Of a DNA stretch of 64,000 nucleotides, positions 1 through 52,021 are shown piece by piece. The translations under genes and the position numbers were made by a program. How positions within the stretch are numbered: position 1 is the stretch's first letter; each line of letters opens with the position of its first letter. Source of the stretch: a virus; the IMG/VR virus record IMGVR_UViG_3300044846_005100, positions 32,001 through 96,000 of that record; one strand, 5' to 3'. Below the pieces are notes generated by a model. It made no database searches. It saw nothing but the letters and a program-made list of their open reading frames with translations, and was not told the origin of the DNA.

Positions 1-130
1 AGTGATGGAGTACCCGTCTCGCTCCAATCTTAACTGCTTTCCCGATTTTTACGGTGCACCGGCAGAGGGTCATGACTATCCTTAGCCTACTTAGCTTGTC
101 GACAGCATAGGTAGAGGCGTCCACTATCTT
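1..130 (-). ncRNA. Unnamed structured RNA candidate, probably truncated by the window edge
   Basis: GC-rich non-coding sequence with several hairpins, starting right after the tRNA-Tyr 3' end. Confidence 0.4.
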
Positions 131-134
131 TTGT

Positions 135-214
135 TGGAAGGGACGGATTCGAACCGCCGTACTCTGAGAGAACAGATTTACAGTCTGCCGGTTTTAGCCA
201 CTCACCCACCTTCC
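135..214 (-). tRNA. tRNA-Tyr(GTA)
   Basis: Cloverleaf GGAAGG..CCTTCC, anticodon loop CTGTAAA, long variable arm, GGTTCGAATCC T-arm. Confidence 0.95.
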
Positions 215-220
215 AATAAA

Positions 221-357
221 TAAGCTGAAGAAAGTTAGAAAGGCATATTTATGTTGCATAAAACGGGGATCGAACCCGTGACCTTTTAAACCCAATTTAA
301 ACGCTCAACCAACTGAGCTATTCACGCGAAGTAACCTTTTCTATTACTATCAGCTTA
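221..357 (-). ncRNA. Y-RNA-like scaffold Y1 with a nested complete tRNA-like module (TGG loop)
   Basis: Terminal stem TAAGCTGA/TCAGCTTA; TAGTAA-N9-TTACTTC motif; internal cloverleaf GCGTGAA..TTTATGC. Confidence 0.8.
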
Positions 358-362
358 ATAAG

Positions 363-506
363 TTAAGACGAGAAAACGAATAGAGTTTTGCTGTTATAAG
401 GCAATTTATGAGATTGCTGTCTTTACCACTTGACTAATTCTCCATGCGGGGAATATAGGATTCGAACCTATGTTTACGAAGTACCTCTAATCTTGCTACG
501 TCTTAA
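363..506 (-). ncRNA. Y-RNA-like scaffold Y2 with a circularly permuted tRNA (T-arm, closed acceptor, D-arm, CAT anticodon arm)
   Basis: Stem TTAAGACG/CGTCTTAA; TAGCAA..TACTTC; ATAGGTTCGAATCCTAT precedes the D-arm TAGTCAAGTGGTAAAGAC. Confidence 0.8.
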
Positions 507-552
507 TAATTCAATGAACTTATTTGTTTTTTAAACCCAGTCGATTAGGTTT

Positions 553-760
553 AAAAAAGAGGCCGGCTTACATTCCATCTTCCGGCCTCTTAGGCTTGAT
601 CTTCATGCTAGCATCTGATCAAAGGTAGAGCTTCGCTTCCAAACTCTTCGCTCTCTAAAAAGGCAGCCGTCTCTTATGGGATCGCCAGCAGGATACCTTA
701 AGTCTTATAGTGAACTTAACAAAACTACTATTAGCTCATAGCTGAGGGAATATCTTCCAA
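553..760 (-). ncRNA. Unnamed structured RNA candidate ending in a terminator-like hairpin
   Basis: GC-rich non-coding sequence; AAGAGGCCGG/CCGGCCTCTT stem followed by a T run on the minus strand. Confidence 0.4.
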
Positions 761-764
761 ATGA

Positions 765-903
765 TAAAGGTAAAGAAAGTTTCCAACCGAGATTTTAGCG
801 CTCTATCCAGCTGAGCTAATGAGGATTACTCCCCATGTTGGATTCGAACCAACGACCTCTCGTTTAACAGACGAAGTAACGGTTTAGATTACTATTACCT
901 TTA
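765..903 (-). ncRNA. Y-RNA-like scaffold Y3 with a circularly permuted tRNA-Asn(GTT)-like module
   Basis: Stem TAAAGGTAA/TTACCTTTA; order is anticodon arm (CTGTTAA), T-arm, acceptor closed by GTAA, D-arm. Confidence 0.8.
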
Positions 904-909
904 ATAAGT

Positions 910-1074
910 TAAGATGAAGAATGTTGCAAATAGTGTTGTTTCTTAACGCGCGTCTACCAGTTCCGCCATTCCCCAATGAGTTGTTTGTAATATAGTCGGG
1001 GAAGAAGGATTCGAACCTTCAATGTACGTGCTCCAAATGCATACGAAGTAACTATTCAGCTTGCTATCATCTTA
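910..1074 (-). ncRNA. Y-RNA-like scaffold Y4 with a permuted tRNA module (T-arm, closed acceptor, Leu-type D-arm)
   Basis: Stem TAAGATGA/TCATCTTA; TAGCAA-N9-TTACTTC; GAAGGTTCGAATCCTTC precedes TGGCGGAACTGGTAGACGC. Confidence 0.8.
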
Positions 1075-1082
1075 TAATAAGT

Positions 1083-1213
1083 TTATCAGGAGAAAGTTGC
1101 AAAGGTGTAACGCTTTCGCGCTTCTGCGGGAATTGAACCCGCGGCCTATTTTGTTTAAGAAAATTGCTCAACCGCTGAGCTAAGAAGTAACCTTTTGCAT
1201 TACTACCCGATAA
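1083..1213 (-). ncRNA. Y-RNA-like scaffold Y5 with D, anticodon (TAA) and T arms fused through the acceptor position
   Basis: Stem TTATCGGG/CCTGATAA; CTTCT/AGAAG replaces the acceptor stem. Confidence 0.8.
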
Positions 1214-1242
1214 TTAATTTTTTCAAAGAACTTGTTTACTTT

Positions 1243-1253
1243 ATTATAATACT
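1243..1253 (-). promoter_or_regulatory. AGTATTATAAT promoter-like motif (also at 6574-6584 and 7087-7097)
   Basis: Identical intergenic 11-mer, three times, about 24-34 nt upstream of an RNA or ORF start. Confidence 0.55.
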
Positions 1254-1294
1254 AAGAATCCCTTTACGTTTAAAATTATTCTTAATATTTTTTG

Positions 1295-1368
1295 TAGTCA
1301 AGACAGGAGTCGAACCTGCAATCTCCCCAACATTCTGTCGGGGCGCGTTACCAATTAGCCACCTGACT
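1295..1368 (-). ncRNA. Atypical tRNA-like RNA (AGTCAGG acceptor family) with an extended anticodon arm
   Basis: AGTCAGG/CTTGACT acceptor, GCAGGTTCGACTCCTGT T-arm, 7-bp anticodon stem with 5-nt loop. Confidence 0.7.
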
Positions 1369-1373
1369 ATAAA

Positions 1374-1464
1374 AAGGATTGCTGGGGGAATACTGTCGAG
1401 AGTATGTTTGGTTTGCGTTTCAGATACAAGAAGTAACTCTGTAACTTGCCACCCAGCAATCTTT
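1374..1464 (-). ncRNA. Y-RNA-like scaffold Y6, minimal, with no tRNA module
   Basis: Stem GATTGCTGGG/CCCAGCAATC; TGGCAA-N9-TTACTTC; begins about 10 nt after the Ro60 stop codon. Confidence 0.75.
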
Positions 1465-1473
1465 ATTTTTTAT

Positions 1474-3102
1474 TTAGATCTTGATCTTTCGAACTTTCTC
1501 TAAGTGATAGTTTGGATTGAATTCGCTTTTCGCGATATCATCGAACATTGAGTATCCGTATCCATAGTAGAAACGAACTTTATCTCCTGCAAGTTGAGTC
1601 GTTCCATAAGCTGCTAGATCCACCGAGTAAACGTATGGGCTTCCGCATGCTTTTGTGTATGACTCGTATGCTTTGTAGCTGCTTCCGCGGTTACACTCAT
1701 TGTCAGATAAGATAAACACTCGGTCATACTGACGTCCAGACATTTGAGCTACTGCCCATGCGGCTGAAAGATTGGTTCCTCCCATATCTCTCTTCATTGC
1801 GCTAGCAATAGAGAATACATCAGAGTTAGCGTTCCATTTTACGTATTCAGCACTTGAACCGAATCGAATAACGTCTCCATTTGTTGCCTTTGCAATGGTT
1901 GCTGCAATTAATGCTGCCTTGTCCATGCATCGGCTAGTGTAACGTTTTCCGCTTCTTGCGCCATCAGTCATTGGAGTACCCATTGATCCAGAGAAATCCA
2001 CCATTACTAGAGTCTTACCAGGAAGCATCTCTGAAAGGTTTGGCACTGCTGCTTCATATCCTTTAAGTAATGCTTGTGCAATCGCTCTGGAGTTAGAATC
2101 AGAAAATTCTGAGATCGTTACCTCGTGAGCTAGGTCAATTTGGTATGGCATAATCTTTCCTTTTCGGATTGCGTCTGGACTAGATAGCAGAGCAGTCAAC
2201 TTAGTAACCGTGTCTCCTTTGTTAACTGTCTTCAATACATTTCTAATATTTCGAAGAGCAGCTAGGATTCCCAGTTTACCGTCAGTTAATAGAGCATCCC
2301 AGTTTTCAGCTTTCGCTTCTTTTAAGATTGTCTCGGCTTCGGACTTGTCGATTTTACCCTCTTTCACAGCTTTCGCAACCTCTTGACCTGCGTCAGATTG
2401 TGCTACTTCCCAAGTATCAGCTGAAACGCTTAAGCCTTTCATGATAGCGGAAAGAACTGGCACTTTTTCTCCATTTACTTCGGCTACTGCACTAGAAGCC
2501 TTTGGATTTGGGTGAACCAGGTTGATCACGTCAACTAGAGAGCTCTTGTATTTAAGTAGTGCATAAGCATCTAAGTTTTCAAGAGCATCCGCGAATCCTT
2601 TTTTCATCGCATTGGTTACCTTTGTTCCATTCAGTGCTGAGAAGCAAGCAACGATTTCTGCCATATCATCTGGACGGAATAGAGTTCCTCCGGATTGAGT
2701 ACGTTTGTTCCATAGGGAATAGAAACGTTTTGCCCATTCTTGACCCGCACAGTGTGGAGCTAGGTAGCTTGCTGCAAGGTGGTTAATTGATCTCATTCCT
2801 TCACCAACACATCTCGAATAAACGATTGATTGAGCTACGAAGTATGCATCTTCTTCTGCACACTCATCGACTAGTCCTTTCAACTCCCTCATCGTTTCTG
2901 TCTCAGAACGATAGAATTGATTTTCTAGCTTTAGTGTGTTTAACATCGTCAGGAGACGAAGCCACTTATCTTGTGAATAAGCTGCATGTCCTTGACGATT
3001 CTTAGTGTCTGGTTTTGGGATTTTCACCGCTTCTACCAGGTTCGCTTGAGGCTGCATTCCAGCTAGCGTCGAACGAAGCTTGTCGTTTCTAAACTTTGTC
3101 AT
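1474..3102 (-). CDS. rsr: Ro60/Rsr-like TROVE-domain RNA-binding protein with C-terminal vWA domain
   Basis: 542 aa; TROVE-like motifs (DTWE, ALRNIRN, MPY), vWA MIDAS DFSGSM, GGTN, LSDNE. Confidence 0.9.
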   Translation of the reverse strand: MTKFRNDKLRSTLAGMQPQANLVEAVKIPKPDTKNRQGHAAYSQDKWLRLLTMLNTLKLENQFYRSETETMRELKGLVDECAEEDAYFVAQSIVYSRCVGEGMRSINHLAASYLAPHCAGQEWAKRFYSLWNKRTQSGGTLFRPDDMAEIVACFSALNGTKVTNAMKKGFADALENLDAYALLKYKSSLVDVINLVHPNPKASSAVAEVNGEKVPVLSAIMKGLSVSADTWEVAQSDAGQEVAKAVKEGKIDKSEAETILKEAKAENWDALLTDGKLGILAALRNIRNVLKTVNKGDTVTKLTALLSSPDAIRKGKIMPYQIDLAHEVTISEFSDSNSRAIAQALLKGYEAAVPNLSEMLPGKTLVMVDFSGSMGTPMTDGARSGKRYTSRCMDKAALIAATIAKATNGDVIRFGSSAEYVKWNANSDVFSIASAMKRDMGGTNLSAAWAVAQMSGRQYDRVFILSDNECNRGSSYKAYESYTKACGSPYVYSVDLAAYGTTQLAGDKVRFYYGYGYSMFDDIAKSEFNPNYHLEKVRKIKI

Positions 3103-3196
3103 TAGTACAAGGAATTAATTTTTGTTTGTGATTAATACTATACAATAATTAAATTGATAGTTTCACGTTTTGCTTAAACTTTTTTCGAAAAAGGTT

Positions 3197-3272
3197 TGGT
3201 GCACCCTACAGGGATCGAACCTGTGACATCTTGCATGTAAAACAAGCGCTCTACCAGCTGAGCTAAAGGTGC
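3197..3272 (-). tRNA. tRNA-Val(TAC), CCA encoded
   Basis: Cloverleaf, anticodon loop TTTACAT. Confidence 0.95.
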
Positions 3273-3339
3273 ATAATAAACTCATTTTTGTTACAATAAA
3301 CAGTATTAGTTTATTGATACAAATTTATGTTTATTGAAT

Positions 3340-3460
3340 TGGTGGGGAAGGGCTTCTTAGGGCCAAATCATTAAATTTACTGTTTAATTGCGATGAAACT
3401 CTTTAATTACTATCATTGCTGAAGAACGGCAAAAGAGCGAATTGTTTTGCATTCTTCCCC
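3340..3460 (-). ncRNA. Inside-out Y-like RNA Y7: acceptor stem plus ACCA enclosing a permuted scaffold motif
   Basis: GGGGAAG/CTTCCCC-ACCA ends; internal CTCTTTTGCCGTTCTTCA-GCAA-TGATAGTAATTAAAGAG. Confidence 0.6.
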
Positions 3461-3465
3461 ATGTG

Positions 3466-3540
3466 TGATCCCGGTGGGGCTCGAACCCACGACTCCCTCA
3501 TTAAAAGTGAGGTGCTCTAAACCAACTGAGCTACGAGATC
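3466..3540 (-). tRNA. tRNA-Lys(TTT)
   Basis: Cloverleaf, loop CTTTTAA. Confidence 0.95.
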
Positions 3541-3593
3541 TCTCGTTTGCGACTCTTGTCGCTCTTGTCACTTTCCATAATCTTTGGATTTTT

Positions 3594-3812
3594 TTAAAGG
3601 TTTGTGATGTATCTGTTTAATAATTTTGCATCCATTAATGGATAAAAATCAGTATCTCCCATGTCTGTAACTGGAACTTGAAATTCAATATCTACTGTTT
3701 TACTTTCATGTTCAATTGGGGCTGAATAATAGGCTACTCCTAATCTGATGAACTTTAATTTTGCAATAGGCTTTTGTTTATAAAGCTCTTTTTTAATTAC
3801 GGTTTTTTCCAT
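3594..3812 (-). CDS. Hypothetical protein within the tRNA array
   Basis: 72-aa ORF with an A-rich leader. Confidence 0.75.
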   Translation of the reverse strand: MEKTVIKKELYKQKPIAKLKFIRLGVAYYSAPIEHESKTVDIEFQVPVTDMGDTDFYPLMDAKLLNRYITNL

Positions 3813-3829
3813 GAGTTTAATTTTTTATT

Positions 3830-3903
3830 TATGGATCACTCTATTTTAATTTGTGGCTCATCAGTCGAATAAAGTGATCCATATTGAATCGACTGATGAG
3901 CCA
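3830..3903 (-). other. H-type RNA pseudoknot
   Basis: 15-bp perfect stem 3854-3868/3889-3903; its loop 3873-3883 is complementary to 3830-3840 (11 bp). Confidence 0.7.
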
Positions 3904-3908
3904 TATTG

Positions 3909-3981
3909 TCTAAGCAGCAGGGATCGAACCTGCGGTCTCGTGGTCCCAAACCACGCGGATTACCAACTTTCCCATGCCTAG
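3909..3981 (-). tRNA. tRNA-Pro(TGG)
   Basis: Cloverleaf, loop TTTGGGA. Confidence 0.92.
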
Positions 3982-4043
3982 TTGTCCACTGTGTAGCATG
4001 CCGAAACAAGACTTTTTATATAGCGCACAGTGGATCGCTTTTG

Positions 4044-4127
4044 AGGAAGCCTGAGGTGTCGATCCCCATACCTTTCAGTACCAACTGTTTTCAAGACAGT
4101 GTTGCAGGCCGCTGCAATTAAACTTCC
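4044..4127 (-). tRNA. tRNA-Ser(TGA), atypical D and T loops
   Basis: Loop CTTGAAA, long variable arm, D-arm TTGCA-GCGGCC-TGCAA, T-loop ATCGACA. Confidence 0.8.
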
Positions 4128-4133
4128 TTATTG

Positions 4134-4204
4134 TTCTCCCCCAAGGATTCGAACCTCGGTCACTTGGCCCAAAACCAAGGGTCCTGCCGCTAGACGAGGG
4201 GAGA
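4134..4204 (-). tRNA. tRNA-Gln(TTG)
   Basis: Cloverleaf, loop TTTTGGG. Confidence 0.92.
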
Positions 4205-4212
4205 ATTTAAAG

Positions 4213-4229
4213 CCAATATGTCAAAGAAC
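4213..4229 (-). promoter_or_regulatory. rrn-type boxA antitermination element (identical copy at 6351-6367; variants at 1222-1231 and 510-519)
   Basis: GTTCTTTGACATATTGG on the minus strand, upstream of tRNAs. Confidence 0.6.
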
Positions 4230-4260
4230 ATTTTTTAGATTGAAGTTCAACAATCTTTTG

Positions 4261-4333
4261 AGCTTTCGACCGGGTTCGAACCGATGGCCACTTGATTACA
4301 AATCAAGAGCTCTACCAACTGAGCTACGAAAGC
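4261..4333 (-). tRNA. tRNA-Thr(TGT)
   Basis: Cloverleaf, loop TTTGTAA. Confidence 0.95.
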
Positions 4334-4341
4334 AATAAAAC

Positions 4342-4373
4342 AAAAAAAACCCGAATCGTTTGGACTCGGGTTT
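4342..4373 (-). terminator. Intrinsic terminator (attenuator 1)
   Basis: AAACCCGAGTC/GATTCGGGTTT stem followed by a T run. Confidence 0.8.
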
Positions 4374-4397
4374 CTTTTAGTTTGATATAGTTAAGAT

Positions 4398-4553
4398 TTA
4401 CATCAATTCCCGAGTATTTTTTAAGTGTTGTTTAGGATCAATAATCGTATTTGAGAAGCGCACAACATTAAAATCACAGTTCGTGTTCCAGCTCATCGGC
4501 GAGCTACTTAACGACTGATACGAAGATTTTAATATGTTGTTAATGTTTTTCAT
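4398..4553 (-). CDS. Putative leader peptide 1 (51 aa)
   Basis: MKNINNILKSSYQSLSSSPMSWNTNCDFNVVRFSNTIIDPKQHLKNTRELM; its 3' end carries ACTCGGG, complementary to the terminator 5' arm. Confidence 0.6.
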   Translation of the reverse strand: MKNINNILKSSYQSLSSSPMSWNTNCDFNVVRFSNTIIDPKQHLKNTRELM

Positions 4554-4668
4554 CGTGTTTATTTATCTTATCAATTTCTAATTTTTAACGCATTGGATCT
4601 TGAGGTTGCTAATATACACCTTTTATTTTAAAATAAAAAATATTTTTAGCTTTTTTTAAATTATTTTT

Positions 4669-4745
4669 TGGTGGTCCTTGCTGGAATCGAACCAGCCACC
4701 TACTGATTATGAGTCAGTTGCTCTAACCGAATGAGCTAAAGGACC
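4669..4745 (-). tRNA. tRNA with CAT anticodon (Ile2 or elongator Met), CCA encoded
   Basis: Cloverleaf GGTCCTT..AAGGACC, loop CTCATAA. Confidence 0.92.
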
Positions 4746-4908
4746 GTGTGCACGTTTTTATATTATCCCCAGAACGTACAAACTGTGCCGACACACGATT
4801 CGGAAGGCGTAGTGCGCATTGATTAAAGAATACCGAAGTATTCTAACTAACGTTCAAGAGGCTATCCCTATCTTCGATCCATACCCAGCGCTAGGCAGAG
4901 GGCTAGTT
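4746..4908 (-). ncRNA. Unnamed structured RNA candidate
   Basis: AGAATAC-TTCG-GTATTCT hairpin and further stems, between tRNA genes. Confidence 0.45.
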
Positions 4909-4909
4909 G

Positions 4910-5008
4910 TAGTCAGGAGGGGAATCGAACCCCTGTTGCCCTTAGTTGCTCTTACTTCTCAGTAAAGTGTGGGATCGAACCACACCTGGACCAAAGCTCC
5001 ACCTGACT
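4910..5008 (-). ncRNA. tRNA-like RNA (AGTCAGG family) with two T-arm-like hairpins
   Basis: AGTCAGG/CCTGACT; GTGTGG-TTCGATC-CCACAC and AGGGG-TTCGATT-CCCCT. Confidence 0.65.
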
Positions 5009-5011
5009 GTA

Positions 5012-5101
5012 AACACACTCTTCAGCTTTCTACTCCCAGCTCCGAGGAATTGTATATAACTTAGCCCATCTCACCGCTGTGTGGGAACTGAAGTTTATGT
5101 G
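5012..5101 (-). ncRNA. Unnamed structured RNA candidate
   Basis: Nested stems CTTCAG/CTGAAG and TCCCA/TGGGA. Confidence 0.5.
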
Positions 5102-5104
5102 ATG

Positions 5105-5219
5105 TAGTCAGGACAGGAATCGAACCTGTAAACCTACTTCCCATCTTCGGTTTTTTAACTCTAATGTTTAGAGTGGGTCAAACCACATTAGAGTACGTAT
5201 ACCATTCCGCCACCTGACT
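5105..5219 (-). ncRNA. tRNA-like RNA (AGTCAGG family) with a greatly expanded anticodon and variable domain
   Basis: Acceptor, D-arm TGGCGGAATGGTATACG, 10-bp ACTCTAATGT/ACATTAGAGT stem, T-arm. Confidence 0.7.
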
Positions 5220-5296
5220 ATGGACGGGCTTTTTGTCGATCTCTCTTAGGCTAGCCCGATACCGCCCTAAGTTCATTCAAGCGCTACTTGACATCG

Positions 5297-5378
5297 TACG
5301 CAAAGAGGGACTCGAACCCTCACACCTTTCGGCACTGGTTCCTAAGACCAGCGTGACTACCAATTCCACCATTCGCGC
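5297..5378 (-). tRNA. tRNA-Leu(TAG)
   Basis: Loop CTTAGGA, long variable arm. Confidence 0.95.
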
Positions 5379-5381
5379 AAA

Positions 5382-5483
5382 TTGAGGTTGAGAAGTCCTC
5401 TGTGTTGTAGTGTACGATTATGTTTTCCATAATTCAAGTAATGTCACTCATCTTTATATTTCCTTTCTCAAGGGAACAACACA
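5382..5483 (-). ncRNA. Kissing-loop RNA element, copy 1
   Basis: GTGTTGT/ACAACAC stem; TGAGAA complementary to the TTCTCA loop; second copy at 5778-5905. Confidence 0.65.
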
Positions 5484-5486
5484 AAA

Positions 5487-5620
5487 ATCATAAACAGAGG
5501 CTATTGGTGGTACCCGCGTCTAGCCATTACCAATCTAACTAGATTTGAGATGATCAAGATCACCTATACTATTTTATTCACGTAGGAATTACCCTTCTAC
5601 CTTTTCCGCGTGTTTATGAT
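5487..5620 (-). ncRNA. Unnamed structured RNA candidate
   Basis: Closing stem ATCATAAAC/GTTTATGAT. Confidence 0.45.
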
Positions 5621-5622
5621 AG

Positions 5623-5774
5623 TGGTTCTAGTAGGAATCGAACCCACCTTGTAAATTACATGCAATATGCCTTAACTTTTTACTCCGATCCTAGTATTAA
5701 GGAGTGTTAAACCAAATTGCCATCATCTACCCACTCGCGACTGCTGGGAGCTACCCACGTTATGCTATAGAACC
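5623..5774 (-). ncRNA. RNA with tRNA-like ends and an insert of about 110 nt
   Basis: GGTTCTA/TAGAACC acceptor, TAGC after the 5' strand, T-arm GTGGGTTCGATTCCTAC. Confidence 0.65.
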
Positions 5775-5777
5775 AAG

Positions 5778-5905
5778 TTGAGGATGAGAAGTCCTCTGTG
5801 TTGTGTGGTGTACCGCCGCCAGCCTTAATACATTATTTGTTGTTTAACCACCCTTAATAATATATCACTGGTACGACCGCACTCTTGTTTCTCAAGAAAC
5901 AACAC
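5778..5905 (-). ncRNA. Kissing-loop RNA element, copy 2
   Basis: Same conserved ends as 5382-5483 with a different insert. Confidence 0.65.
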
Positions 5906-5909
5906 GTAG

Positions 5910-5982
5910 TGGAGCAGGTGGGATTCGAACCCACATCCTCTACCTTGCAAAGGTAGCGCTCAGCCAGTTGAGCTACAACCCC
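5910..5982 (-). tRNA. tRNA-Ala(TGC)
   Basis: Cloverleaf, G3:U70 pair, loop TTTGCAA. Confidence 0.95.
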
Positions 5983-5989
5983 ATTTAAA

Positions 5990-6183
5990 AAACAAGTCTT
6001 CCGTGCTCACCACGGGTTTGGATTTGACTGATGGTTTGTTCCCCATCACCTGTTGACGTGCACATCAGAGCAGGGTCCATTACAGGATACCTTGGGGCAT
6101 TCAAACTCTCAGTAAAGGTTGCGATCCTATGAGAGCCAAGGTTTCTTTCATCCGCGCTATTCGGACTTCTGTAAGACTTGTTT
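5990..6183 (-). ncRNA. Large (about 194 nt) multi-stem ncRNA candidate
   Basis: 11-bp closing stem AAACAAGTCTT/AAGACTTGTTT; internal CCTTGG/CCAAGG, CTCTCA/TGAGAG and TGATGG/CCATCA. Confidence 0.6.
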
Positions 6184-6185
6184 AG

Positions 6186-6259
6186 AGCAGGTAGTCGGAC
6201 TCGAACCGACAACCCTCGCCTTGGAAGGGCGACGCTCTAGCCAATTGAGCTATACCTGC
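6186..6259 (-). tRNA. tRNA-Gly(TCC)
   Basis: Cloverleaf, loop CTTCCAA. Confidence 0.95.
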
Positions 6260-6266
6260 TTATTTG

Positions 6267-6340
6267 TGATCCCGGCACGATTCGAACGTGCGACCTTCGC
6301 CTTAGAAGGGCGTTGCTCTATCCGGCTGAGCTACGGAACC
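6267..6340 (-). tRNA. tRNA-Arg(TCT)
   Basis: Cloverleaf, loop CTTCTAA. Confidence 0.95.
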
Positions 6341-6389
6341 GTTTTTAGATCCAATATGTCAAAGAACTTTGGTACAAAATGTACCGCAG

Positions 6390-6462
6390 TAGCGGGGGCC
6401 AGATTCGAACTGACGTCCTCGGGTTATGAGCCCGCCGAGAATACCATCTTCTCCACCCCGCT
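6390..6462 (-). tRNA. tRNA-Met(CAT), initiator-like
   Basis: GGG/CCC anticodon stem, loop CTCATAA. Confidence 0.9.
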
Positions 6463-6468
6463 ATATTG

Positions 6469-6540
6469 TACTGCCACGGAGAATCGAACTCCGATTTTAT
6501 GGATGAAAACCATAGGTCCTAACCGTTAGACGATGGCAGC
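6469..6540 (-). tRNA. tRNA-Glu(TTC)
   Basis: Cloverleaf, loop TTTTCAT. Confidence 0.93.
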
Positions 6541-6606
6541 ATATTTAAAAAGAACGTTTTCTTTTTTGTTGTCATTATAATACTCTATTTCAAACTATAT
6601 TAAAAC

Positions 6607-6637
6607 AAAAAAACCTCAACTTTTTGGGTTGAGGTTT
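6607..6637 (-). terminator. Intrinsic terminator (attenuator 2)
   Basis: AAACCTCAAC/GTTGAGGTTT stem followed by a T run. Confidence 0.8.
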
Positions 6638-6658
6638 AAATATTCTTATATTCTTGAC

Positions 6659-6742
6659 TCAACTTATTAACCGCACTCTTCCCTCGCCTGCTTCTATCAG
6701 AAGGGCCGCTCTAAGGATTGAGATATTTGTTAATTGTTTCAT
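6659..6742 (-). CDS. Putative leader peptide 2 (27 aa)
   Basis: MKQLTNISILRAALLIEAGEGRVRLIS; GTTGAG across the stop codon pairs with the terminator 5' arm; TATTTTTG -7 box at about 6783-6790. Confidence 0.55.
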   Translation of the reverse strand: MKQLTNISILRAALLIEAGEGRVRLIS

Positions 6743-6820
6743 TGAAAGTATCAATAGTTATTTTGTTGTATTATTTATACTGCAAAAATATAAAAAGTTT
6801 CAATTGTTGAAAAATTTATT

Positions 6821-7063
6821 TTACAATTCATCAAGATTTGCTAGTGTGTCAACACAAACTATTACTTGATCTTTTGGAAAATACCACTTGTCGAGGAAGG
6901 TTCCTCCCTTTTCGTATTCGCCCCAATCGTAATCTTCTTTAAGTGTTTGAAGTACGTGTTCAACGCTTTTTGCCTTCATTTTAAGAAGGTTAGAGTCAGC
7001 TGCTTCTCTGTGAGTTGTTAGTCCAACATTCTCGGTACCGATGATGTAAGTGCGTAATGCCAT
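6821..7063 (-). CDS. Hypothetical protein
   Basis: Co-oriented ORF behind an AGTATTATAAT motif. Confidence 0.75.
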   Translation of the reverse strand: MALRTYIIGTENVGLTTHREAADSNLLKMKAKSVEHVLQTLKEDYDWGEYEKGGTFLDKWYFPKDQVIVCVDTLANLDEL

Positions 7064-7113
7064 TTGGTTAAATTTAAAAGGTTTTAATTATAATACTCTT
7101 TTTAAAGTAAGTT

Positions 7114-7518
7114 TTAAATCAAATTCTTCTTTTTTAGCTCAGCATGTTTTACCATCACACTCTTTCGTATTTTAGAAAAGAGTTTAGGGAATTGGGTGAC
7201 TGTCCACACTAACACTTGTACATGCCACGTAGTTATTAAATTAAAGACTTTAGAAAAGAAGGAGTGTTTCATTTCAGGTTCTATCTTCCAGTCTGGCACA
7301 TTTTCCAAGTAGATCTTAAGTTGTCGATGTAAGACTACTTGATGTTCAAACATGTCATCTGACTGGGTATACTGTCGATATATCCTGACTTTACGTAAGT
7401 ATTCAATTGCATGGTCAACTGCCATCATAGCCTCCTCTTTAGATGGATACATTACTTGCATCTCCTCAATCTTTTTAGGAAAATCTGCTCTACTTCGTAA
7501 GATTATCATCGCTCGCAT
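7114..7518 (-). CDS. Hypothetical protein
   Basis: Operon-packed ORF. Confidence 0.7.
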   Translation of the reverse strand: MRAMIILRSRADFPKKIEEMQVMYPSKEEAMMAVDHAIEYLRKVRIYRQYTQSDDMFEHQVVLHRQLKIYLENVPDWKIEPEMKHSFFSKVFNLITTWHVQVLVWTVTQFPKLFSKIRKSVMVKHAELKKKNLI

Positions 7519-7918
7519 ACTCAGTTTCGATTAATCTTTGAATTCTCATTCTGCCTTTTTCACCAATTGGAATAGGATTTCCCTCTTCATCAATATGTAC
7601 AAATTTGATTTGAGTTTTTAGAACGACTATTTGCTTTCCAGTATAAACGTTATGCGCTCTAGCTTCCATGTATAGAACAATACTAGTATTGCCTAATCCT
7701 GCAGGACCACCATATATCTTTATTAATTGACCCTCTTTTGCAGGTTTCTCAAAGAAACATTTTTCAATAGATACTGTTACCATTCGAGGAGTATCACACA
7801 GTTGCATTGAGTATCCGGCAGCAGCGGCATCGATCCATGCCAGGAGTTTACCCCCAAATAGGTTTCCGTGAAATCCTAGATCAGATTTCTTAATTGGATG
7901 AGTGTTTAATAATTCCAT
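7490..7918 (-). CDS. Hotdog-fold acyl-CoA thioesterase (YciA-like)
   Basis: DLGFHGNLFGGKLLAWID motif; C-terminal FVHIDEEGNP. Confidence 0.85.
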   Translation of the reverse strand: MELLNTHPIKKSDLGFHGNLFGGKLLAWIDAAAAGYSMQLCDTPRMVTVSIEKCFFEKPAKEGQLIKIYGGPAGLGNTSIVLYMEARAHNVYTGKQIVVLKTQIKFVHIDEEGNPIPIGEKGRMRIQRLIETEYASDDNLTK

Positions 7919-8184
7919 TATTCTTTTTCCTTAGTATTGAATTTTACTAATATCTCGTTTCGAAGTTCCAATGCTTTACGTCTTTCAGTAAAGCTTGAAC
8001 CTTTTTCCATGTCTCCAAGTGCAGCTAAGAATACATTTAATTCTTCATCATTTGCTGTTTCTGCAATAAAATCATATTCGTCATCTGTAATATTAAACAG
8101 GACTTTAATTACATTATCAAACATGTCATGGATTCCTCCTCCACTTACAATACATGCCTGTACTTCTGGTCTAAGTATTTTCAT
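7918..8184 (-). CDS. Hypothetical protein
   Basis: Operon-packed ORF. Confidence 0.75.
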   Translation of the reverse strand: MKILRPEVQACIVSGGGIHDMFDNVIKVLFNITDDEYDFIAETANDEELNVFLAALGDMEKGSSFTERRKALELRNEILVKFNTKEKE

Positions 8185-13923: not shown

Positions 13924-14853
13924 TTAAAAGTTATTATATTCTGTTTGTAGGACTTTAAATCCAAGATTTCTAGCATAATCTACTACTTGATTCCTGTCAT
14001 CTACCATAAATTGAATATAGTGTGTTTTACAAATTTCTTCCCACATTTCTGCTTTTACCTGCCAATCAGGTCTATTATCTCCAGATTTTCTCATATACAA
14101 ATCATCTTTATGTACATATATACAGTTTTGGTATAACCAATATAAAGTATCTACTTTACATATTTCATCTCTACCACTACAAAATATAATCTTATGGTCA
14201 TCTGAAATTTCTTTTTTAAACTGATCGTAAACATAAGCAATATCTACAATTGAATCTATAGGCTTATCTTCTAACACTCTTCCCCAATCAAAAGGATTTC
14301 TTTTTCCTTTTTCAGCCAAAGTACCGTCAATATCAAATACAATGCATTTAGTTTTTTGGGGATCATTTTCAATGAATTTAATGGTAAAATCTATAGGATT
14401 TTCTTGTAAAGATTTTTTTAAGTTTTGAAATTGAGAATACTGTTTTTTAATTATTTCGTCATCCACTTGTCTAGTTCTTCTTTTATTGTATTCTAAACAT
14501 CTCTCCAAGCTAATATTAAAAAATTCTAAGTTAACCACACAGTTGAAATATTTAAATCTTTCTAAATATTCTCTCTTTAGGTGAGTAGCATCTATGATAG
14601 GAGTTTTTGATGAAGCAAGAGCTTCTTTTATCAATAAATTTTCATACTGAGTAACTTCTTTTTCTCTTTTATTTAGATCTGGTCTTTTGTAATACTCTGA
14701 TATAGTTGATTCAGTATATCCAAACAAAAGTTCTCGTATTTTATCTCTATTGACAGAGATAAACTGATCAGGGGCATTTTGTACTAATGCACAAGCGTGT
14801 GTGCTTTTTCCTGAACCGCTTGGGCCTACCAATACTATTATTTTTCTAGTCAT
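13924..14853 (-). CDS. pseT: Polynucleotide 5'-kinase/3'-phosphatase (T4 PseT-like)
   Basis: GPSGSGKS P-loop, NRD, HAD motif DIDGT, SGR, DDR. Confidence 0.92.
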   Translation of the reverse strand: MTRKIIVLVGPSGSGKSTHACALVQNAPDQFISVNRDKIRELLFGYTESTISEYYKRPDLNKREKEVTQYENLLIKEALASSKTPIIDATHLKREYLERFKYFNCVVNLEFFNISLERCLEYNKRRTRQVDDEIIKKQYSQFQNLKKSLQENPIDFTIKFIENDPQKTKCIVFDIDGTLAEKGKRNPFDWGRVLEDKPIDSIVDIAYVYDQFKKEISDDHKIIFCSGRDEICKVDTLYWLYQNCIYVHKDDLYMRKSGDNRPDWQVKAEMWEEICKTHYIQFMVDDRNQVVDYARNLGFKVLQTEYNNF

Positions 14854-14854
14854 A

Positions 14855-16363
14855 TTATTCTTGATTATCTTCTAAATTTGTTTCTCCTTTTTCTTGAGCA
14901 TCAGATTCTCCTAAAATAAATCTTTTAGATTTTAATTTATATGCTTCATAAGAATACATGTTTTCTTTTCTCAAGATTATTCCTTCTTCTGGAACTTTAT
15001 TATTACACATATAACAATCTTTTTCATTATATTTTATTTCTAAATCAGCTAACATAGGTTCTCTGAAATCTAAAAATCCTGTTAAATTATTTTTTTCTAA
15101 ATAATTCTGAACAGTACCGTAATAAATAAAAGTGTCTTTGTATAACAACCCTACTTTTTCACAATATTCTTCAATTTGTTTATCAGTTAAAAAGATTACT
15201 TTTCCATCAGGATTTACCACTGAAATTTTGTAAACATAAAATTTATGTTGTGGTTTTTTAACTGTTTCTAATTCTTTTAACAAATCTTGAGGAATTGTTT
15301 CAAAAATATCATCCAATCTACCAATAAAAAATTTAAACTTTTCTTCATCGTATAAATTATATTTTTTTAATAAATCTTCTTTTTGCTTTTTATTTAAAGC
15401 TTTCCAAGCTTCTTTATAGGATTTTTTATCATCGCTACCTAAAACAGTACAACCGTAATCATACGCTCCTTGTATTGGGGCCCCTGAAGCAGTGTAACCT
15501 AAAATTTCTCCATAAAGTGTCCAATTTTTAGGAATTAAATGTCCTATTTCTTTGGCCACAACTCCCCAAATATCTTCTCCATAAAATCCTCCTCCTTTTG
15601 TTGGATTCAAATATTGGTTTTTAATTACTTTTCTCGAAGAATAAACAATGTCATAATCTTCTTCCTTAATATTCACTCCTACTTTTTTCAATAATTTTTC
15701 ATACCATGATAAAGGAGTTTTTACTAATACATTTCCAACTACCATTGAAGTACCATGCTTCTTGTAGTGAATACCGATAATATCATCAGGATTGATTTTA
15801 TCCATATTTTTACGAAGATTATCAGTATCTCCATGTAAATAAAATTGGCCTTCAATTAATCTATCAATACCTTTTGGCTGTTTATGGGATTTAGTAGCAT
15901 TACTTCCTCTTTGTTGTACAGGTACAATATATTTTTCACAGAGAGTATTACCATTAATTTCTGTAAATTCATCTCCTATATTTAAAGAGTCAATAGATGA
16001 ACTTTCTAAAAAAGAGTTTAAACTACTTAAAGGCATCAACATTCCATCAGATATTTCTCCTCTGAGTTTGATTGCTTTTACACGTTTTTGTTTAAAACTG
16101 ATAAACCCTTTTTGGGCTGTATCTAAATTTTCTTCAGATTTATCATACAAATTATTTTTTTTACAATAATCTGCATTTAATTTAGTACCAGATACAAAAT
16201 AAAGCATTATATCTCCTTCTTTTACATTTTTGGAACATACTACTGTATTACCATTTACAATAGTTTTTACGATCATATCTGCTCCTTCTATTGGGAGAAT
16301 TTTTTTAACTTCAACTACACTACATGCATAGTTTTTGGAATTTTCATTTACTGATAATGTCAT
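14855..16363 (-). CDS. ATP-dependent RNA ligase (DRB0094/Rnl2-like) with N-terminal OB-type domain
   Basis: PIEGAD, KLRGEISDG, motif I KKHGTS, YGE, EEGIIL, YKLK. Confidence 0.85.
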   Translation of the reverse strand: MTLSVNENSKNYACSVVEVKKILPIEGADMIVKTIVNGNTVVCSKNVKEGDIMLYFVSGTKLNADYCKKNNLYDKSEENLDTAQKGFISFKQKRVKAIKLRGEISDGMLMPLSSLNSFLESSSIDSLNIGDEFTEINGNTLCEKYIVPVQQRGSNATKSHKQPKGIDRLIEGQFYLHGDTDNLRKNMDKINPDDIIGIHYKKHGTSMVVGNVLVKTPLSWYEKLLKKVGVNIKEEDYDIVYSSRKVIKNQYLNPTKGGGFYGEDIWGVVAKEIGHLIPKNWTLYGEILGYTASGAPIQGAYDYGCTVLGSDDKKSYKEAWKALNKKQKEDLLKKYNLYDEEKFKFFIGRLDDIFETIPQDLLKELETVKKPQHKFYVYKISVVNPDGKVIFLTDKQIEEYCEKVGLLYKDTFIYYGTVQNYLEKNNLTGFLDFREPMLADLEIKYNEKDCYMCNNKVPEEGIILRKENMYSYEAYKLKSKRFILGESDAQEKGETNLEDNQE

Positions 16364-51941: not shown

Positions 51942-52021
51942 ATTTTTTATTTTTACTACTTGCACCCCGAAAGGTGCAACGCTTTTGGCTTAAAGTCTAT
52001 TTATAGTTGCCAAAACAACTT

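What the first reader, a model, noticed from the sequence alone, without database searches (positions are those of the whole stretch)
221..3102. Phage Ro60 followed by an array of six Y-RNA-like scaffolds with interchangeable tRNA cargo
Seen: six minus-strand units downstream of the TROVE-vWA gene share one architecture. Each has a terminal stem, then TRGYAA, exactly 9 nt, then TTACTTC (TACTTC in Y2), then cargo, then the complementary strand, an RYWTTCY loop strand and the closing stem. The stem sequences differ between units yet still pair, which is covariation rather than recent duplication. The linker AACTTATTA recurs between Y1/Y2, Y3/Y4 and Y4/Y5. Known: bacterial Rsr binds Y RNAs encoded nearby, usually one or two, and YrlA carries a tRNA-like D/T/acceptor module that lacks an anticodon arm. 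Inference: this is a modular Ro60-RNA system with a constant handle and a variable payload. The payloads could be tRNA decoys for host anticodon nucleases, or guides for tRNA repair or decay. The handle does not match the GNCGAA-type motif I recall for YrlA, so it may be a new Y RNA class.
Basis: partly seen in the sequence, partly recalled or inferred. Interest (0 to 1): 0.95.

Follow-up and report, generated by a model that had tools for sequence, protein, structure and literature searches.

The report
Phage Ro60 with tRNA-mimic RNA array
An uncultured 140-kb phage encodes the ring-shaped RNA-binding protein Ro60 followed by six small RNA genes that share one conserved stem "handle" but each display a different tRNA look-alike. 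This is a diverged and much expanded form of the known Ro60-Y RNA partnership, and the look-alikes' anticodons change unusually fast between related phages.

Summary
A Ro60 gene lies at 1474-3102 on the minus strand; its sequence and predicted fold match solved Ro60 structures. Six same-strand units follow at 222-1460. These six are the only matches to the handle motif in the whole 140-kb phage genome.

Each unit has four parts:
- a 7-9 bp closing stem;
- a conserved helix (bulged U, covarying R-Y pair, G-C, invariant pyrimidine-U mismatch, A-U);
- a covarying second helix;
- GUUACUUC, followed by the cargo.

Cargo differs by unit. Y6 has none and resembles YrlB. Y3 and Y4 carry YrlA-style permuted tRNA-like domains. 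Y2, Y5 and Y1 carry tRNA bodies that keep an anticodon arm, with the scaffold attached at different points.

A covariance model built only from cargo-less units found 89 hits in 29 Ro60-anchored viral loci, all on the Ro60 strand. It found 3 hits in 79 control loci.

Anticodon positions are among the most variable columns, while U33 and purine 37 stay fixed. Phages with 99% identical Ro60 carry 3 units rather than 6.

Verdict: a divergent, expanded YrlA/YrlB-type Y RNA family, and a new variant of a known kind. Ro60 binding, expression and any decoy role are untested. This scan has noted similar arrays on other DNA.

The parts
1474..3102 (-). Ro60 (TROVE + vWA) gene, 542 aa, P0001
   Evidence: Pfam TROVE 30.3 bits (cut-off 23) and vWA_Ro60 25.1 bits. 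phmmer to Thermus phage phiLo Ro60 (9KOP/9L5Y) gives E 1e-12 over residues 31-516. In the AlphaFold model (pLDDT 76.8) the top 12 listed PDB fold matches are all Ro60 structures. The MIDAS motif DFSGS is present.
1378..1460 (-). Y6: cargo-less unit (UGGCAA...AUUCC handle, A/C-rich loop), 13 nt after the Ro60 stop; YrlB-like
   Evidence: Fold z -2.9. Orthologues lie directly after Ro60 in L001, L009, L010, L015, L022, L029 and L032. It belongs to alignment A3: 90.4% of cells paired versus 70% in shuffles. CM R1 scores it 77.6 bits.
1294..1368 (-). tRNA-like gene between Y6 and Y5 with an oversized (9-11 nt) anticodon loop; no handle
   Evidence: ARAGORN calls tRNA-Phe(gaa). Rfam tRNA scores only 39.5 bits, with an 11-nt insert in the anticodon loop.
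1084..1212 (-). Y5: handle plus a tRNA body (D, anticodon arm UAA, T). A 5-bp acceptor is built from CUUC of the handle and capped by a GAAA hairpin, so there is no free 3' end.
   Evidence: Rfam tRNA 52.8 bits, model positions 3-68. Alignment A1 of 15 orthologues is 97.2% paired, with 19 pairs showing compensatory change; slid controls give 40-52%. CM R1 scores it 39.8 bits.
1074..1083 (-). Linker AACUUAUUAU between Y5 and Y4
911..1073 (-). Y4: handle plus a permuted class-II (Leu-like) tRNA domain in the order V hairpin, 4-bp stem, T arm, closed acceptor with a 21-nt loop, D arm
   Evidence: Alignment A6 has 24 of 39 pairs with compensatory change. The 5' half matches the phage tRNA-Leu D arm best. 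The unit is absent from the closest relatives L001/L002.
902..910 (-). Linker AACUUAUUA between Y4 and Y3
767..901 (-). Y3: handle plus a YrlA-type permuted tRNA-like domain (V hairpin, T arm, acceptor closed by GUAA, D arm)
   Evidence: Rfam YrlA 33.2 bits (gathering score 69), E 5e-6 on the local search, model positions 24-84. Window 789-880 is about 80% identical to RNAs beside TROVE genes in Xanthomonas/Xylella and Caulobacter phages. CM R1 scores it 21.5 bits with filters off.
553..766 (-). Conserved spacer of unknown function. It ends in a stem (590-582 / 566-558) plus a T-run (557-553) that looks like an intrinsic terminator.
   Evidence: It keeps the same position after the Y3-type unit in L001-L003 (86% identity) and in L006 and L014 (70%). 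No Rfam match. The terminator was read from the sequence; the scan tool missed it because the loop is longer than 8 nt.
365..504 (-). Y2: handle (TACTTC variant) plus a permuted tRNA in the order T arm, acceptor closed by a 4-nt loop, D arm, anticodon arm (CAU). The scaffold leaves at the variable-loop position.
   Evidence: Alignment A4 of 11 orthologues has 24 of 33 pairs with compensatory change. Absent from L001/L002.
357..364 (-). Linker AACUUAUU between Y2 and Y1
222..356 (-). Y1: handle enclosing a whole cloverleaf (7-bp acceptor, anticodon UGG, A73, no CCA)
   Evidence: Rfam tRNA 60.1 bits at 255-327. In alignment A2 of 14 orthologues the same body carries anticodons UGG, UAG, CAG, AGG, UCA, UUG and one 8-nt loop. 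CM R1 scores it 30.9 bits. Absent from L001/L002.
3340..3458 (-). Related 'inside-out' element upstream of Ro60. It has a tRNA-type acceptor stem GGGGAAG/CUUCCCC plus ACCA, and inside it a handle whose closing stem is capped by GCAA.
   Evidence: Fold and reading of the sequence. A fuller version occurs in L174, L183 and L189: acceptor, D arm, T arm and CCA, with a handle hairpin in place of the anticodon arm.
13924..16363 (-). Context: polynucleotide kinase-phosphatase (13924-14853) and RNA ligase (14855-16363), the T4-type tRNA repair pair
   Evidence: Pfam HAD_PNKP 1e-35 and AAA_33 2e-16. The PHA02142 OB-fold (8e-9) passes its cut-off; RNA_ligase (7e-5, 23.5 bits) falls below its 27-bit cut-off.

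Best explanation
The locus encodes a phage Ro60 ribonucleoprotein system with an expanded set of Y RNAs.

Shown computationally:
- The protein is a Ro60.
- The six RNAs are paralogues built on one scaffold. The scaffold is a closing stem; a conserved helix 5'-U(bulge)-R-G-Y-A-A / 3'-Y-C-U-U-W with an invariant pyrimidine-U mismatch; a second covarying helix with one bulge; and then G-UUACUUC.
- The scaffold carries either no cargo (Y6), a YrlA-type permuted tRNA-like domain (Y3, Y4), or a tRNA body that keeps a well-formed anticodon arm. In those, the acceptor end is closed (Y2, Y5) or buried in the scaffold (Y1).

Inferred:
- The units are transcribed with Ro60 and the surrounding tRNA genes.
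- They are separated at the A/U-rich AACUUAUU(A) linkers.
- Ro60 binds the conserved helix and the 5'-strand motif, as Ro60 binds the bulged helix of other Y RNAs.
- The tRNA-shaped module is what the particle shows to tRNA-binding factors.

The most likely role is in the conflict over the tRNA pool during infection. The RNAs would tether Ro60 to proteins that recognise tRNA, or act as bait for them. Ro60 would bring with it a host 3'-5' exonuclease such as PNPase, as in the RYPER complex, or the phage's own Pnkp and RNA ligase. Different anticodon displays would address different targets.
For: Ro60 identity.

Six units and nothing else in the 140-kb genome.

Scaffold covariation:
- Alignment A3 is 90.4% paired, versus 70% in shuffles and 41-57% in slid controls. 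The R-Y pair splits AU:7 and GC:7.
- Alignment A1 is 97.2% paired, with 19 compensatory pairs.
- RNAalifold recovers the same helices on its own.
- Across 91 distinct units the Y.U position is never a standard pair, while R-Y is paired in 83 of 91.

Family and linkage:
- 35 Ro60-anchored viral loci hold about 109 units. All except one low-scoring minus-strand match in two duplicate loci are on the Ro60 strand, at a median distance of 433 nt.
- CM R1, trained only on cargo-less units, gives 89 hits at E<=0.01 in 29 such loci, all on the + strand. It gives 3 hits in 79 control loci that contain the 5' motif by chance.
- The Y3-type V-arm pattern hits about 10 further distinct viral lineages. All but one of these have a distant Ro60 (24-28% identity) within 1-3 kb.

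Homology to YrlA: layout and YUAY motif; cultured-phage relatives beside TROVE genes.

Precedent: phage phiLo Ro60 binds two phage Yrl RNAs and forms a complex with host PNPase (PMC12135203). YrlA mimics tRNA (PMC4201824).

tRNA-conflict context: Pnkp plus RNA ligase and a 26-tRNA island.
Against: - No binding or expression data.
- The defining YrlA motif GNCGAAN0-1G is absent, and no unit reaches the Rfam gathering score; the best is 33 bits against 69.
- Two lineages carry units on contigs with no detectable Ro60: L100 (38.8 kb, 11% complete) and L177/L178 (77 and 39 kb, 26% and 13% complete). The 'inside-out' L174-type RNAs also lack a nearby Ro60. So close linkage is not universal, or these fragments simply miss the gene.
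- Y1-type units hold a complete cloverleaf that RNase P, 3' trimming and CCA addition could release as an ordinary tRNA.
Confidence: 0.72

Rival explanations
1. Anticodon-display decoys or sensors. This is a specialisation of the best explanation. The closed-acceptor tRNA mimics (Y2, Y5, perhaps Y1) would be baits for host anticodon nucleases or other anticodon-reading defence proteins. The anticodon would be retuned as hosts change. Ro60 would stabilise the bait or couple it to decay or repair.
For: - The anticodon triplet is among the most variable parts of otherwise conserved molecules. It ranks 2, 15 and 17 of 128 columns in Y5-type, 5, 21 and 47 of 140 in Y2-type, and 4, 22 and 75 of 131 in Y1-type.
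- U33, purine 37, the 7-nt loop and the covarying stem are kept.
- There are 8 different anticodons among 15 Y5-type orthologues.
- Acceptor ends are closed, so these RNAs cannot be charged.
- The bodies are not recent copies of the phage's own tRNAs.
- The phage carries the Pnkp/RNA ligase pair known to undo anticodon-nuclease cuts.
- All three window mimic anticodons (UGG, CAU, UAA) duplicate tRNAs that the phage also supplies.
Against: - There is no nuclease, cleavage or host information.
- High variability of three loop bases could simply mean they are unconstrained.
- Some 'orthologues' may be paralogues.
- Y3, Y4 and Y6 have no anticodon arm, so this cannot be the function of the whole family.
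Confidence: 0.25
2. The units are unusual tRNA genes, whole or circularly permuted. The scaffold would be a processing or expression cassette, and cutting, with ligation for the permuted ones, would yield working tRNAs.
For: - Y1 contains a full cloverleaf scoring 60 bits on the Rfam tRNA model.
- M. smegmatis YrlA is cut by RNase P and receives CCA (PMC4201824).
- The phage has an RNA ligase.
Against: - Y5-type acceptors are 5 bp and capped by a conserved GNRA hairpin. Y2- and Y3-type acceptors are closed by 4-nt loops.
- Y3, Y4 and Y6 have no anticodon arm.
- One conserved body carries anticodons for different amino acids and for stop codons. That would cause mistranslation if the RNA were charged.
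- The phage already has ordinary tRNAs for the same anticodons.
Confidence: 0.08
3. The handle binds some other protein of the tRNA island, or is a processing signal, and sits near Ro60 only because both lie in phage tRNA islands.
For: - Units occur in tRNA islands on contigs without a detectable Ro60.
- No binding data exist.
Against: - Units are on the Ro60 strand in 89 of 89 model hits, at a median of 433 nt from the gene.
- The cargo-less type always follows the Ro60 stop codon directly.
- Linkage persists down to 24-28% Ro60 identity and in 43-kb Xanthomonas phages.
- The layout is homologous to YrlA.
Confidence: 0.1
4. Chance repeats, a recent tandem duplication, or a mobile element with terminal inverted repeats.
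For: The units have a tandem arrangement and inverted ends.
Against: - Stem sequences differ between units but stay complementary.
- The motif count is far above chance.
- The family is conserved across Ro60 proteins of 37-99% identity.
Confidence: 0.01

Closest known systems
Bacterial Rsr (Ro60) with YrlA and YrlB Y RNAs (Salmonella, Mycobacterium; Rfam RF02553; Chen et al. 2014, PMC4201824)
   Same: - The RNAs are encoded beside Ro60 on the same strand.
- The 5' and 3' ends pair into a long stem interrupted by a conserved internal region.
- YUAY starts the V region.
- Y3 and Y4 carry a permuted tRNA-like domain in the order V-T-closed acceptor-D.
- Y6 is a shorter partner without a tRNA domain, like YrlB.
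- The 3' strand contains AACUU, as in the Rfam consensus.
   Different: - The 5' motif is U-R-G-Y-A-A, not GNCGAAN0-1G.
- No unit reaches the Rfam gathering score.
- There are six units per locus rather than one or two.
- Three layouts are not described for YrlA: a whole tRNA inside the scaffold (Y1), a scaffold leaving from the variable-loop position with the anticodon arm kept (Y2), and a scaffold branching from the acceptor stem (Y5).
- Anticodons vary between relatives.
Thermus phage phiLo Ro60 with Yrl1 and Yrl2 (PMC12135203; PDB 9KOP, 9L5Y)
   Same: - A phage-encoded Ro60 with phage-encoded Y-like RNAs next to the gene.
- It is the best sequence and fold match of the protein here.
- The authors report that it forms a complex with host PNPase.
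   Different: phiLo has two RNAs with a CGAA motif, and one search found no tRNA cargo described for them. Here there are six RNAs, a different motif and tRNA-type cargo.
Deinococcus radiodurans Rsr-Yrn1-PNPase (RYPER)
   Same: It gives the model for how a Y RNA works: one module binds Ro60 and the other tethers an effector.
   Different: The effector here is unknown, and no PNPase gene was seen in the part of the window that I annotated.
Unannotated Y3-like RNAs beside TROVE genes in cultured Xanthomonas/Xylella phages (e.g. Usme) and Caulobacter phages CcrColossus and CcrPW
   Same: They are about 80% identical to the Y3 core. They lie on the same strand 65-400 nt upstream of a TROVE+vWA gene and share UUACUUC plus the V hairpin.
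   Different: The search with window 200-3200 found one matching place per record, although a Rfam scan found a second YrlA-like hit in CcrColossus. The handle 5' strand is UGUAG- or GCGUAG-like.
Circularly permuted tRNA genes of the red alga Cyanidioschyzon merolae (from my own knowledge, not checked here)
   Same: The 3' half of the tRNA is encoded before the 5' half.
   Different: Those genes are processed into working tRNAs. Here the acceptor ends are closed by short loops and the anticodon side is fused to a Ro60-type scaffold.
Phage answers to anticodon nucleases: T4 Pnkp plus Rnl1 against PrrC (from my own knowledge; PMC2610378 appeared in the search list but was not read)
   Same: The phage encodes Pnkp and an RNA ligase and a large tRNA set.
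   Different: No known system uses Ro60-tethered tRNA mimics. The link is inference only.

Membership tests
Ro60 / TROVE protein family | TROVE domain | tested here: met
   PF05731 scores 30.3 bits against a cut-off of 23.
Ro60 / TROVE protein family | C-terminal vWA domain with a MIDAS motif | tested here: met
   vWA_Ro60 scores 25.1 bits, just under its 27.7 cut-off. DFSGS is present, and the predicted fold matches vWA domains.
Ro60 / TROVE protein family | Full-length likeness to solved Ro60 structures | tested here: met
   phmmer gives E 1e-12 to 9KOP/9L5Y over residues 31-516. The top 12 listed Foldseek matches are all Ro60 (phiLo, D. radiodurans, Xenopus, human), with E 2e-14 to 2e-10 and TM 0.40-0.60.
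YrlA (Rfam RF02553) | Encoded within 4 kb of Ro60 on the same strand | tested here: met
   All six units lie 13-1250 nt downstream of the stop codon on the minus strand.
YrlA (Rfam RF02553) | GNCGAAN0-1G motif near the 5' end | tested here: not met
   The units have UAGYAA or UGGCAA instead. Only the overall layout and the 3' AACUU resemble the Rfam consensus.
YrlA (Rfam RF02553) | tRNA-like domain in the order V, T arm, closed acceptor stem, D arm, with YUAY at the start of V | tested here: met
   Met for Y3 and Y4. Y2 is a variant that adds an anticodon arm. Not met for Y1 and Y5 (normal tRNA order) or Y6 (no tRNA domain).
YrlA (Rfam RF02553) | Score at or above the Rfam gathering threshold (69 bits) | tested here: not met
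   The best score is Y3 at 33.2 bits. Phage relatives reach 35-50 bits.
YrlA (Rfam RF02553) | Bound by Ro60; carries tRNA-type modifications; substrate of RNase P and the CCA-adding enzyme | not testable with these tools
   Needs RIP or EMSA and RNA biochemistry.
Functional tRNA (for Y1 and Y5 cargo) | Cloverleaf with D, anticodon and T arms | tested here: met
   Rfam tRNA scores 60.1 bits (Y1) and 52.8 bits (Y5).
Functional tRNA (for Y1 and Y5 cargo) | 7-bp acceptor stem with a free, chargeable 3' end | tested here: not met
   Y5 has a 5-bp acceptor capped by a conserved GNRA hairpin. Y1 has a 7-bp acceptor plus A73 but is enclosed by the scaffold and has no CCA, so it would need processing; for Y1 alone the result is inconclusive.
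Functional tRNA (for Y1 and Y5 cargo) | Anticodon conserved together with the body, as identity rules require | tested here: not met
   The same body carries 8 (Y5-type) or 7 (Y1-type) different anticodons or loops, including UUA and UCA.

The most novel reading that the evidence does not exclude
Phages keep a cassette system in which one Ro60-binding handle is recombined with tRNA bodies attached at any point: acceptor, position 26, anticodon stem or variable loop. The displayed anticodon is retuned quickly. The resulting particles would be decoys, sensors or adaptors aimed at host anticodon nucleases or other anticodon-reading defence and translation factors. That would be an RNA-based, fast-evolving counter-defence layer tied to Ro60 and RNA repair.
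Probability: 0.25. Interest if true: 0.9.

Novelty: new variant of a known kind. Interest (0 to 1): 0.7.

Why it matters
Ro60 and Y RNAs are conserved from bacteria to humans. What the RNA's second module does is known in very few cases.

This clade offers a natural series. One handle and one protein are combined with many tRNA-shaped modules, and those modules differ in topology and in anticodon. Units are gained and lost between near-identical phages.

The series makes three questions directly testable:
- which part of a Y RNA Ro60 reads;
- what the tRNA mimic recruits;
- whether phages use tRNA mimics in the fight over host tRNA cleavage.

It also shows that the Rfam YrlA model misses a large phage branch. 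Some 'tRNA genes' called in phage tRNA islands are not ordinary tRNAs; here that applies to tRNA-Pro at 255-327 and tRNA-Leu at 1118-1189.

Tried and rejected
- **Plain handle pattern in viral contigs.** I reused those loci as a negative control.
- I first read the hit coordinates as window coordinates and took 590-681 for a separate conserved RNA. They are query-relative and equal window 789-880, which is the Y3 core. Alignment A5 therefore mixes unrelated stretches and is void.
- **Rfam at gathering score.** It finds no YrlA in the window.
- **Promoter and terminator scan.** Uninformative, about as many sites as in shuffles.
- **CM R1 sensitivity.** With default filters it misses Y2, Y3 and Y4. 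With filters off it recovers Y3, but only the 5' halves of Y2 and Y4, probably because their cargo is too long for the model.
- **Closing-stem search bias.** My search is lenient. Shuffled controls reach a score of at least 11 in 25% of cases against 85% for real units, and a score of 12 in 2% against 42%. I therefore rely for covariation.
- **Cargo as recent copies of the phage's own tRNAs.** Rejected.
- **Likeness to Dictyostelium Class I RNAs.** This lead came from earlier notes of this scan. The published 11-nt motif keeps T, C, C, A, A at positions 3, 6, 9, 10 and 11. This handle shares only the final CAA, and only in the UAGCAA half of the units. That is too weak to use.
- **Mobile-element or duplication reading.** Rejected.

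Full report
**Where this is.** The window is positions 32001-96000 of a 140,223-bp IMG/VR virus record that CheckV rates as complete. Its first 6.5 kb belong to a minus-strand tRNA island that holds 26 ARAGORN-called tRNAs in the genome. The rest of the annotated part is a replication and nucleotide-metabolism module. It contains family A DNA polymerase, a helicase, thymidylate synthase, a weak ribonucleotide reductase match and a dNMP kinase. It also contains a T4-type polynucleotide kinase-phosphatase (13924-14853) and, next to it, an RNA ligase (14855-16363).

**The protein.** The ORF at 1474-3102 (-) encodes 542 aa. It matches Pfam TROVE above threshold and vWA_Ro60 just below. It has the MIDAS motif DFSGS. 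It matches the solved Ro60 of Thermus phage phiLo over nearly its full length, with E 1e-12. A model built from 12 relatives has mean pLDDT 76.8. Its top 12 listed PDB fold matches are exclusively Ro60 structures from phage phiLo, Deinococcus, Xenopus and human. It is a Ro60.

**The observation.**
- Five units contain TRGYAA-N9-TTACTTC exactly. Y2 has TACTTC.
- The tool finds 6 matches with at most 1 mismatch against 0.62 expected. Five are the units and one is a stray.
- A looser regex finds only the six units in the entire genome.
It recurs at unit junctions in related phages.

**Anatomy of the handle.** The 'loop strand' is in fact paired. Next to the 7-9 bp closing stem (H1) lies a conserved helix, built as follows:
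- a bulged U;
- an R-Y pair that covaries (A-U in UAG...UUCU units, G-C in UGG...UUCC units);
- a G-C pair;
- a pyrimidine opposite U that is never a standard pair in 91 distinct units;
- an A-U pair.

After that comes a second helix (H2) of about 8 bp with one bulged base, variable in sequence. Then comes G-UUACUUC and the cargo.

The covariation evidence is as follows.
- For 14 cargo-less units, 90.4% of cells pair, against 70% in shuffles and 41-57% when the partners are slid. Twelve of 18 pairs show double changes.
- For 15 Y5-type units the figures are 97.2%, 86.9% and 40-52%, with 19 of 39 pairs showing double changes.
- RNAalifold finds the same helices unaided.

**The cargo.**
- **Y6** has a 30-nt A/C-rich loop and no tRNA part.
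- **Y3** has a V hairpin started by the motif's ACUUC, a T arm, an acceptor stem closed by GUAA, and a D arm. This is the YrlA design, and it is the only unit with a clear, though sub-threshold, Rfam YrlA hit (33 bits).
- **Y4** has the same design with a class-II, Leu-like body and the 4-bp enclosing stem also seen in the Rfam YrlA consensus.
- **Y2** is permuted too, but keeps a 5-bp anticodon stem and a 7-nt loop (CAU). Its scaffold therefore leaves at the variable-loop position.
- **Y5** has the normal tRNA order (D, anticodon arm UAA, T). Its acceptor is 5 bp, made with CUUC of the handle and capped by a conserved GNRA hairpin.
- **Y1** encloses a complete cloverleaf with anticodon UGG.

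Relatives add further forms. One is permuted with the break after the D arm. Another has mini-cargo of 14-20 nt. 'Inside-out' RNAs have free tRNA ends and carry the handle as a hairpin in place of the anticodon arm. The window has a reduced inside-out element at 3340-3458.

**Is it a family, and is it tied to Ro60?**
- A search with the protein gave 35 viral loci with Ro60 at 37-99% identity.
- They hold about 109 units. All but one low-scoring minus-strand match, seen in two duplicate loci, are on the Ro60 strand. Units lie upstream and downstream, at a median of 433 nt from the gene, with up to six per locus.
- Covariance model R1 was built only from cargo-less units. In window 1-8000 its four best hits are Y6, Y5, Y3 and Y1.
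- R1 gives 89 hits at E<=0.01 in 29 Ro60 loci, all on the Ro60 strand. These include loci where the regex failed.
- In 79 control loci that contain the 5' motif by chance, R1 hits only one locus, L100, three times.
- A pattern for the Y3-type V arm hit 33 viral stretches. The Y-type ones outside the near clade fall into about 10 distinct lineages. All but one (L177/L178) have a distant Ro60 (24-28% identity, or a TROVE hit) within 1-3 kb.
- The Y3 core is about 80% identical to unannotated RNAs 65-400 nt upstream of TROVE+vWA genes in cultured Xanthomonas/Xylella phages and in Caulobacter phages CcrColossus and CcrPW.

There are exceptions.
- L100 is a true three-unit array, and L177/L178 carry units as well. 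These contigs have no detectable Ro60, but they are only 11-26% complete.
- L169 is cut at the contig end where Ro60 would lie.
- The inside-out L174 type is not Ro60-linked on its fragments.

**Relation to YrlA.** Chen et al. 2014 define YrlA by four features: position beside Ro60, a GNCGAAN0-1G motif, YUAY at the start of the V loop, and the T, closed-acceptor and D arms. Here the position, the YUAY motif (as UUAC) and the domain order fit for Y3 and Y4. The 3' strand shares AACUU with the Rfam consensus. The GNCGAA motif is replaced, and no unit passes the Rfam threshold. More distant phage relatives have intermediate 5' strands such as UGGCGUAG, UGCAGU and GCGGCAA, and they score 35-50 bits on YrlA. 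I therefore read the family as a diverged phage branch of YrlA/YrlB, not as an unrelated class.

**What is new.** My literature searches turned up YrlA, the phiLo Ro60 with two Yrl RNAs, and a remark that some jumbo phages carry a TROVE protein with a tRNA-like partner. I found no description of three things seen here.
- *Arrays of units.*
- *The alternative attachment topologies.*
- *Anticodon-bearing mimics.*

Two comparative results stand out.

First, whole units turn over fast. The nearest relatives, with 99% identical Ro60, have only the Y6, Y5 and Y3 types and lack Y4, Y2 and Y1.

Second, the anticodon is among the most variable parts of otherwise conserved molecules. U33, purine 37, loop length and the covarying stem are all kept.
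- Y5-type has 8 anticodons in 15 sequences: UAA, UUA, AUC, UUG, GCA, UCA, UUU and GAA.
- Y1-type has UGG, UAG, CAG, AGG, UCA, UUG and one 8-nt loop.
- Y2-type has CAU, UAU, AAC, AAA, GCA and UGA.

The bodies are not recent copies of the phage's own tRNAs.

**How it most likely works.** Shown by computation: a Ro60 gene; a structured and conserved handle; tRNA-shaped cargo; linkage and strand bias; and unit and anticodon turnover. Inferred:
- the units are co-transcribed with Ro60 and the tRNAs;
- they are cut at the A/U-rich linkers;
- Ro60 binds the conserved helix;
- the tRNA-shaped module is displayed to tRNA-binding factors.

Three things point to a role in the contest over tRNAs during infection: the closed acceptor ends, the variable anticodons and the phage's Pnkp and RNA ligase. 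The RNAs could be tethers that bring Ro60 and an exonuclease or repair enzymes to tRNA-related targets, or baits for anticodon-reading nucleases. I put 0.72 on 'Ro60-partner Y RNAs of the YrlA/YrlB kind' and about 0.25 on the specific decoy or sensor reading. The rivals score 0.08 (real or permuted tRNA genes), 0.1 (handle for another protein) and 0.01 (chance or a mobile repeat).

**Standing in this scan.** Earlier notes of this scan describe the same stretch and similar Ro60-plus-handle arrays in many other genomes; 386 notes hold the search words. I treated them as leads only. They do not change the literature-based novelty class, but the phenomenon is clearly recurrent.

Noticed in passing
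window 553-766 (-): A roughly 215-nt stretch after Y3 that ends in a terminator-like stem plus T-run (590-553). It is conserved at the same place in L001-L003 (86%) and in L006 and L014 (70%). It has no Rfam match, and its function is unknown.
   Followed up: partly
window 1294-1368 (-): A tRNA-like gene between Y6 and Y5 with a 9-11-nt anticodon loop (ARAGORN calls Phe-GAA; Rfam tRNA only 39.5 bits).
   Followed up: no
window 3340-3458 (-); L174, L183, L189: 'Inside-out' RNAs with a tRNA acceptor stem and (A)CCA end, in which the handle appears as an internal hairpin. In L174-type loci a full tRNA (D arm, T arm, CCA) has the handle hairpin in place of its anticodon arm.
   Followed up: partly
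window 13924-16363 (-): Adjacent polynucleotide kinase-phosphatase and RNA ligase genes, the T4-type tRNA repair pair.
   Followed up: partly
window 6023-6084 (-) and 51954-52020 (-): freshwater-1 RNA (86 bits) inside the tRNA island and a Pistol ribozyme (65 bits), both above the Rfam gathering scores.
   Followed up: no
L034 3519-3933, L035 3444-3860: GOLLD RNA (277-281 bits) about 1 kb upstream of the distant Ro60 genes, with handle units between them.
   Followed up: no
L201 1661-2980 (Xylella phage Usme, CAA2366833.1) and the Xanthomonas phages of the same group: The protein annotated 'hypothetical protein' is a TROVE+vWA Ro60 homologue (Pfam 1e-10). An unannotated YrlA-like RNA lies 65 nt upstream.
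   Followed up: yes
L011 5806-5940: A Y1-type unit whose anticodon loop has 8 nt (UUAG in the anticodon position), like a frameshift-suppressor loop.
   Followed up: no
L100 5546-6141: A three-unit array in a tRNA island on a 38.8-kb contig (11% complete) with no detectable Ro60.
   Followed up: partly
L188 7587-7917, L027 7818-8196: A permuted tmRNA and a standard tmRNA in Ro60-bearing phage tRNA islands.
   Followed up: no
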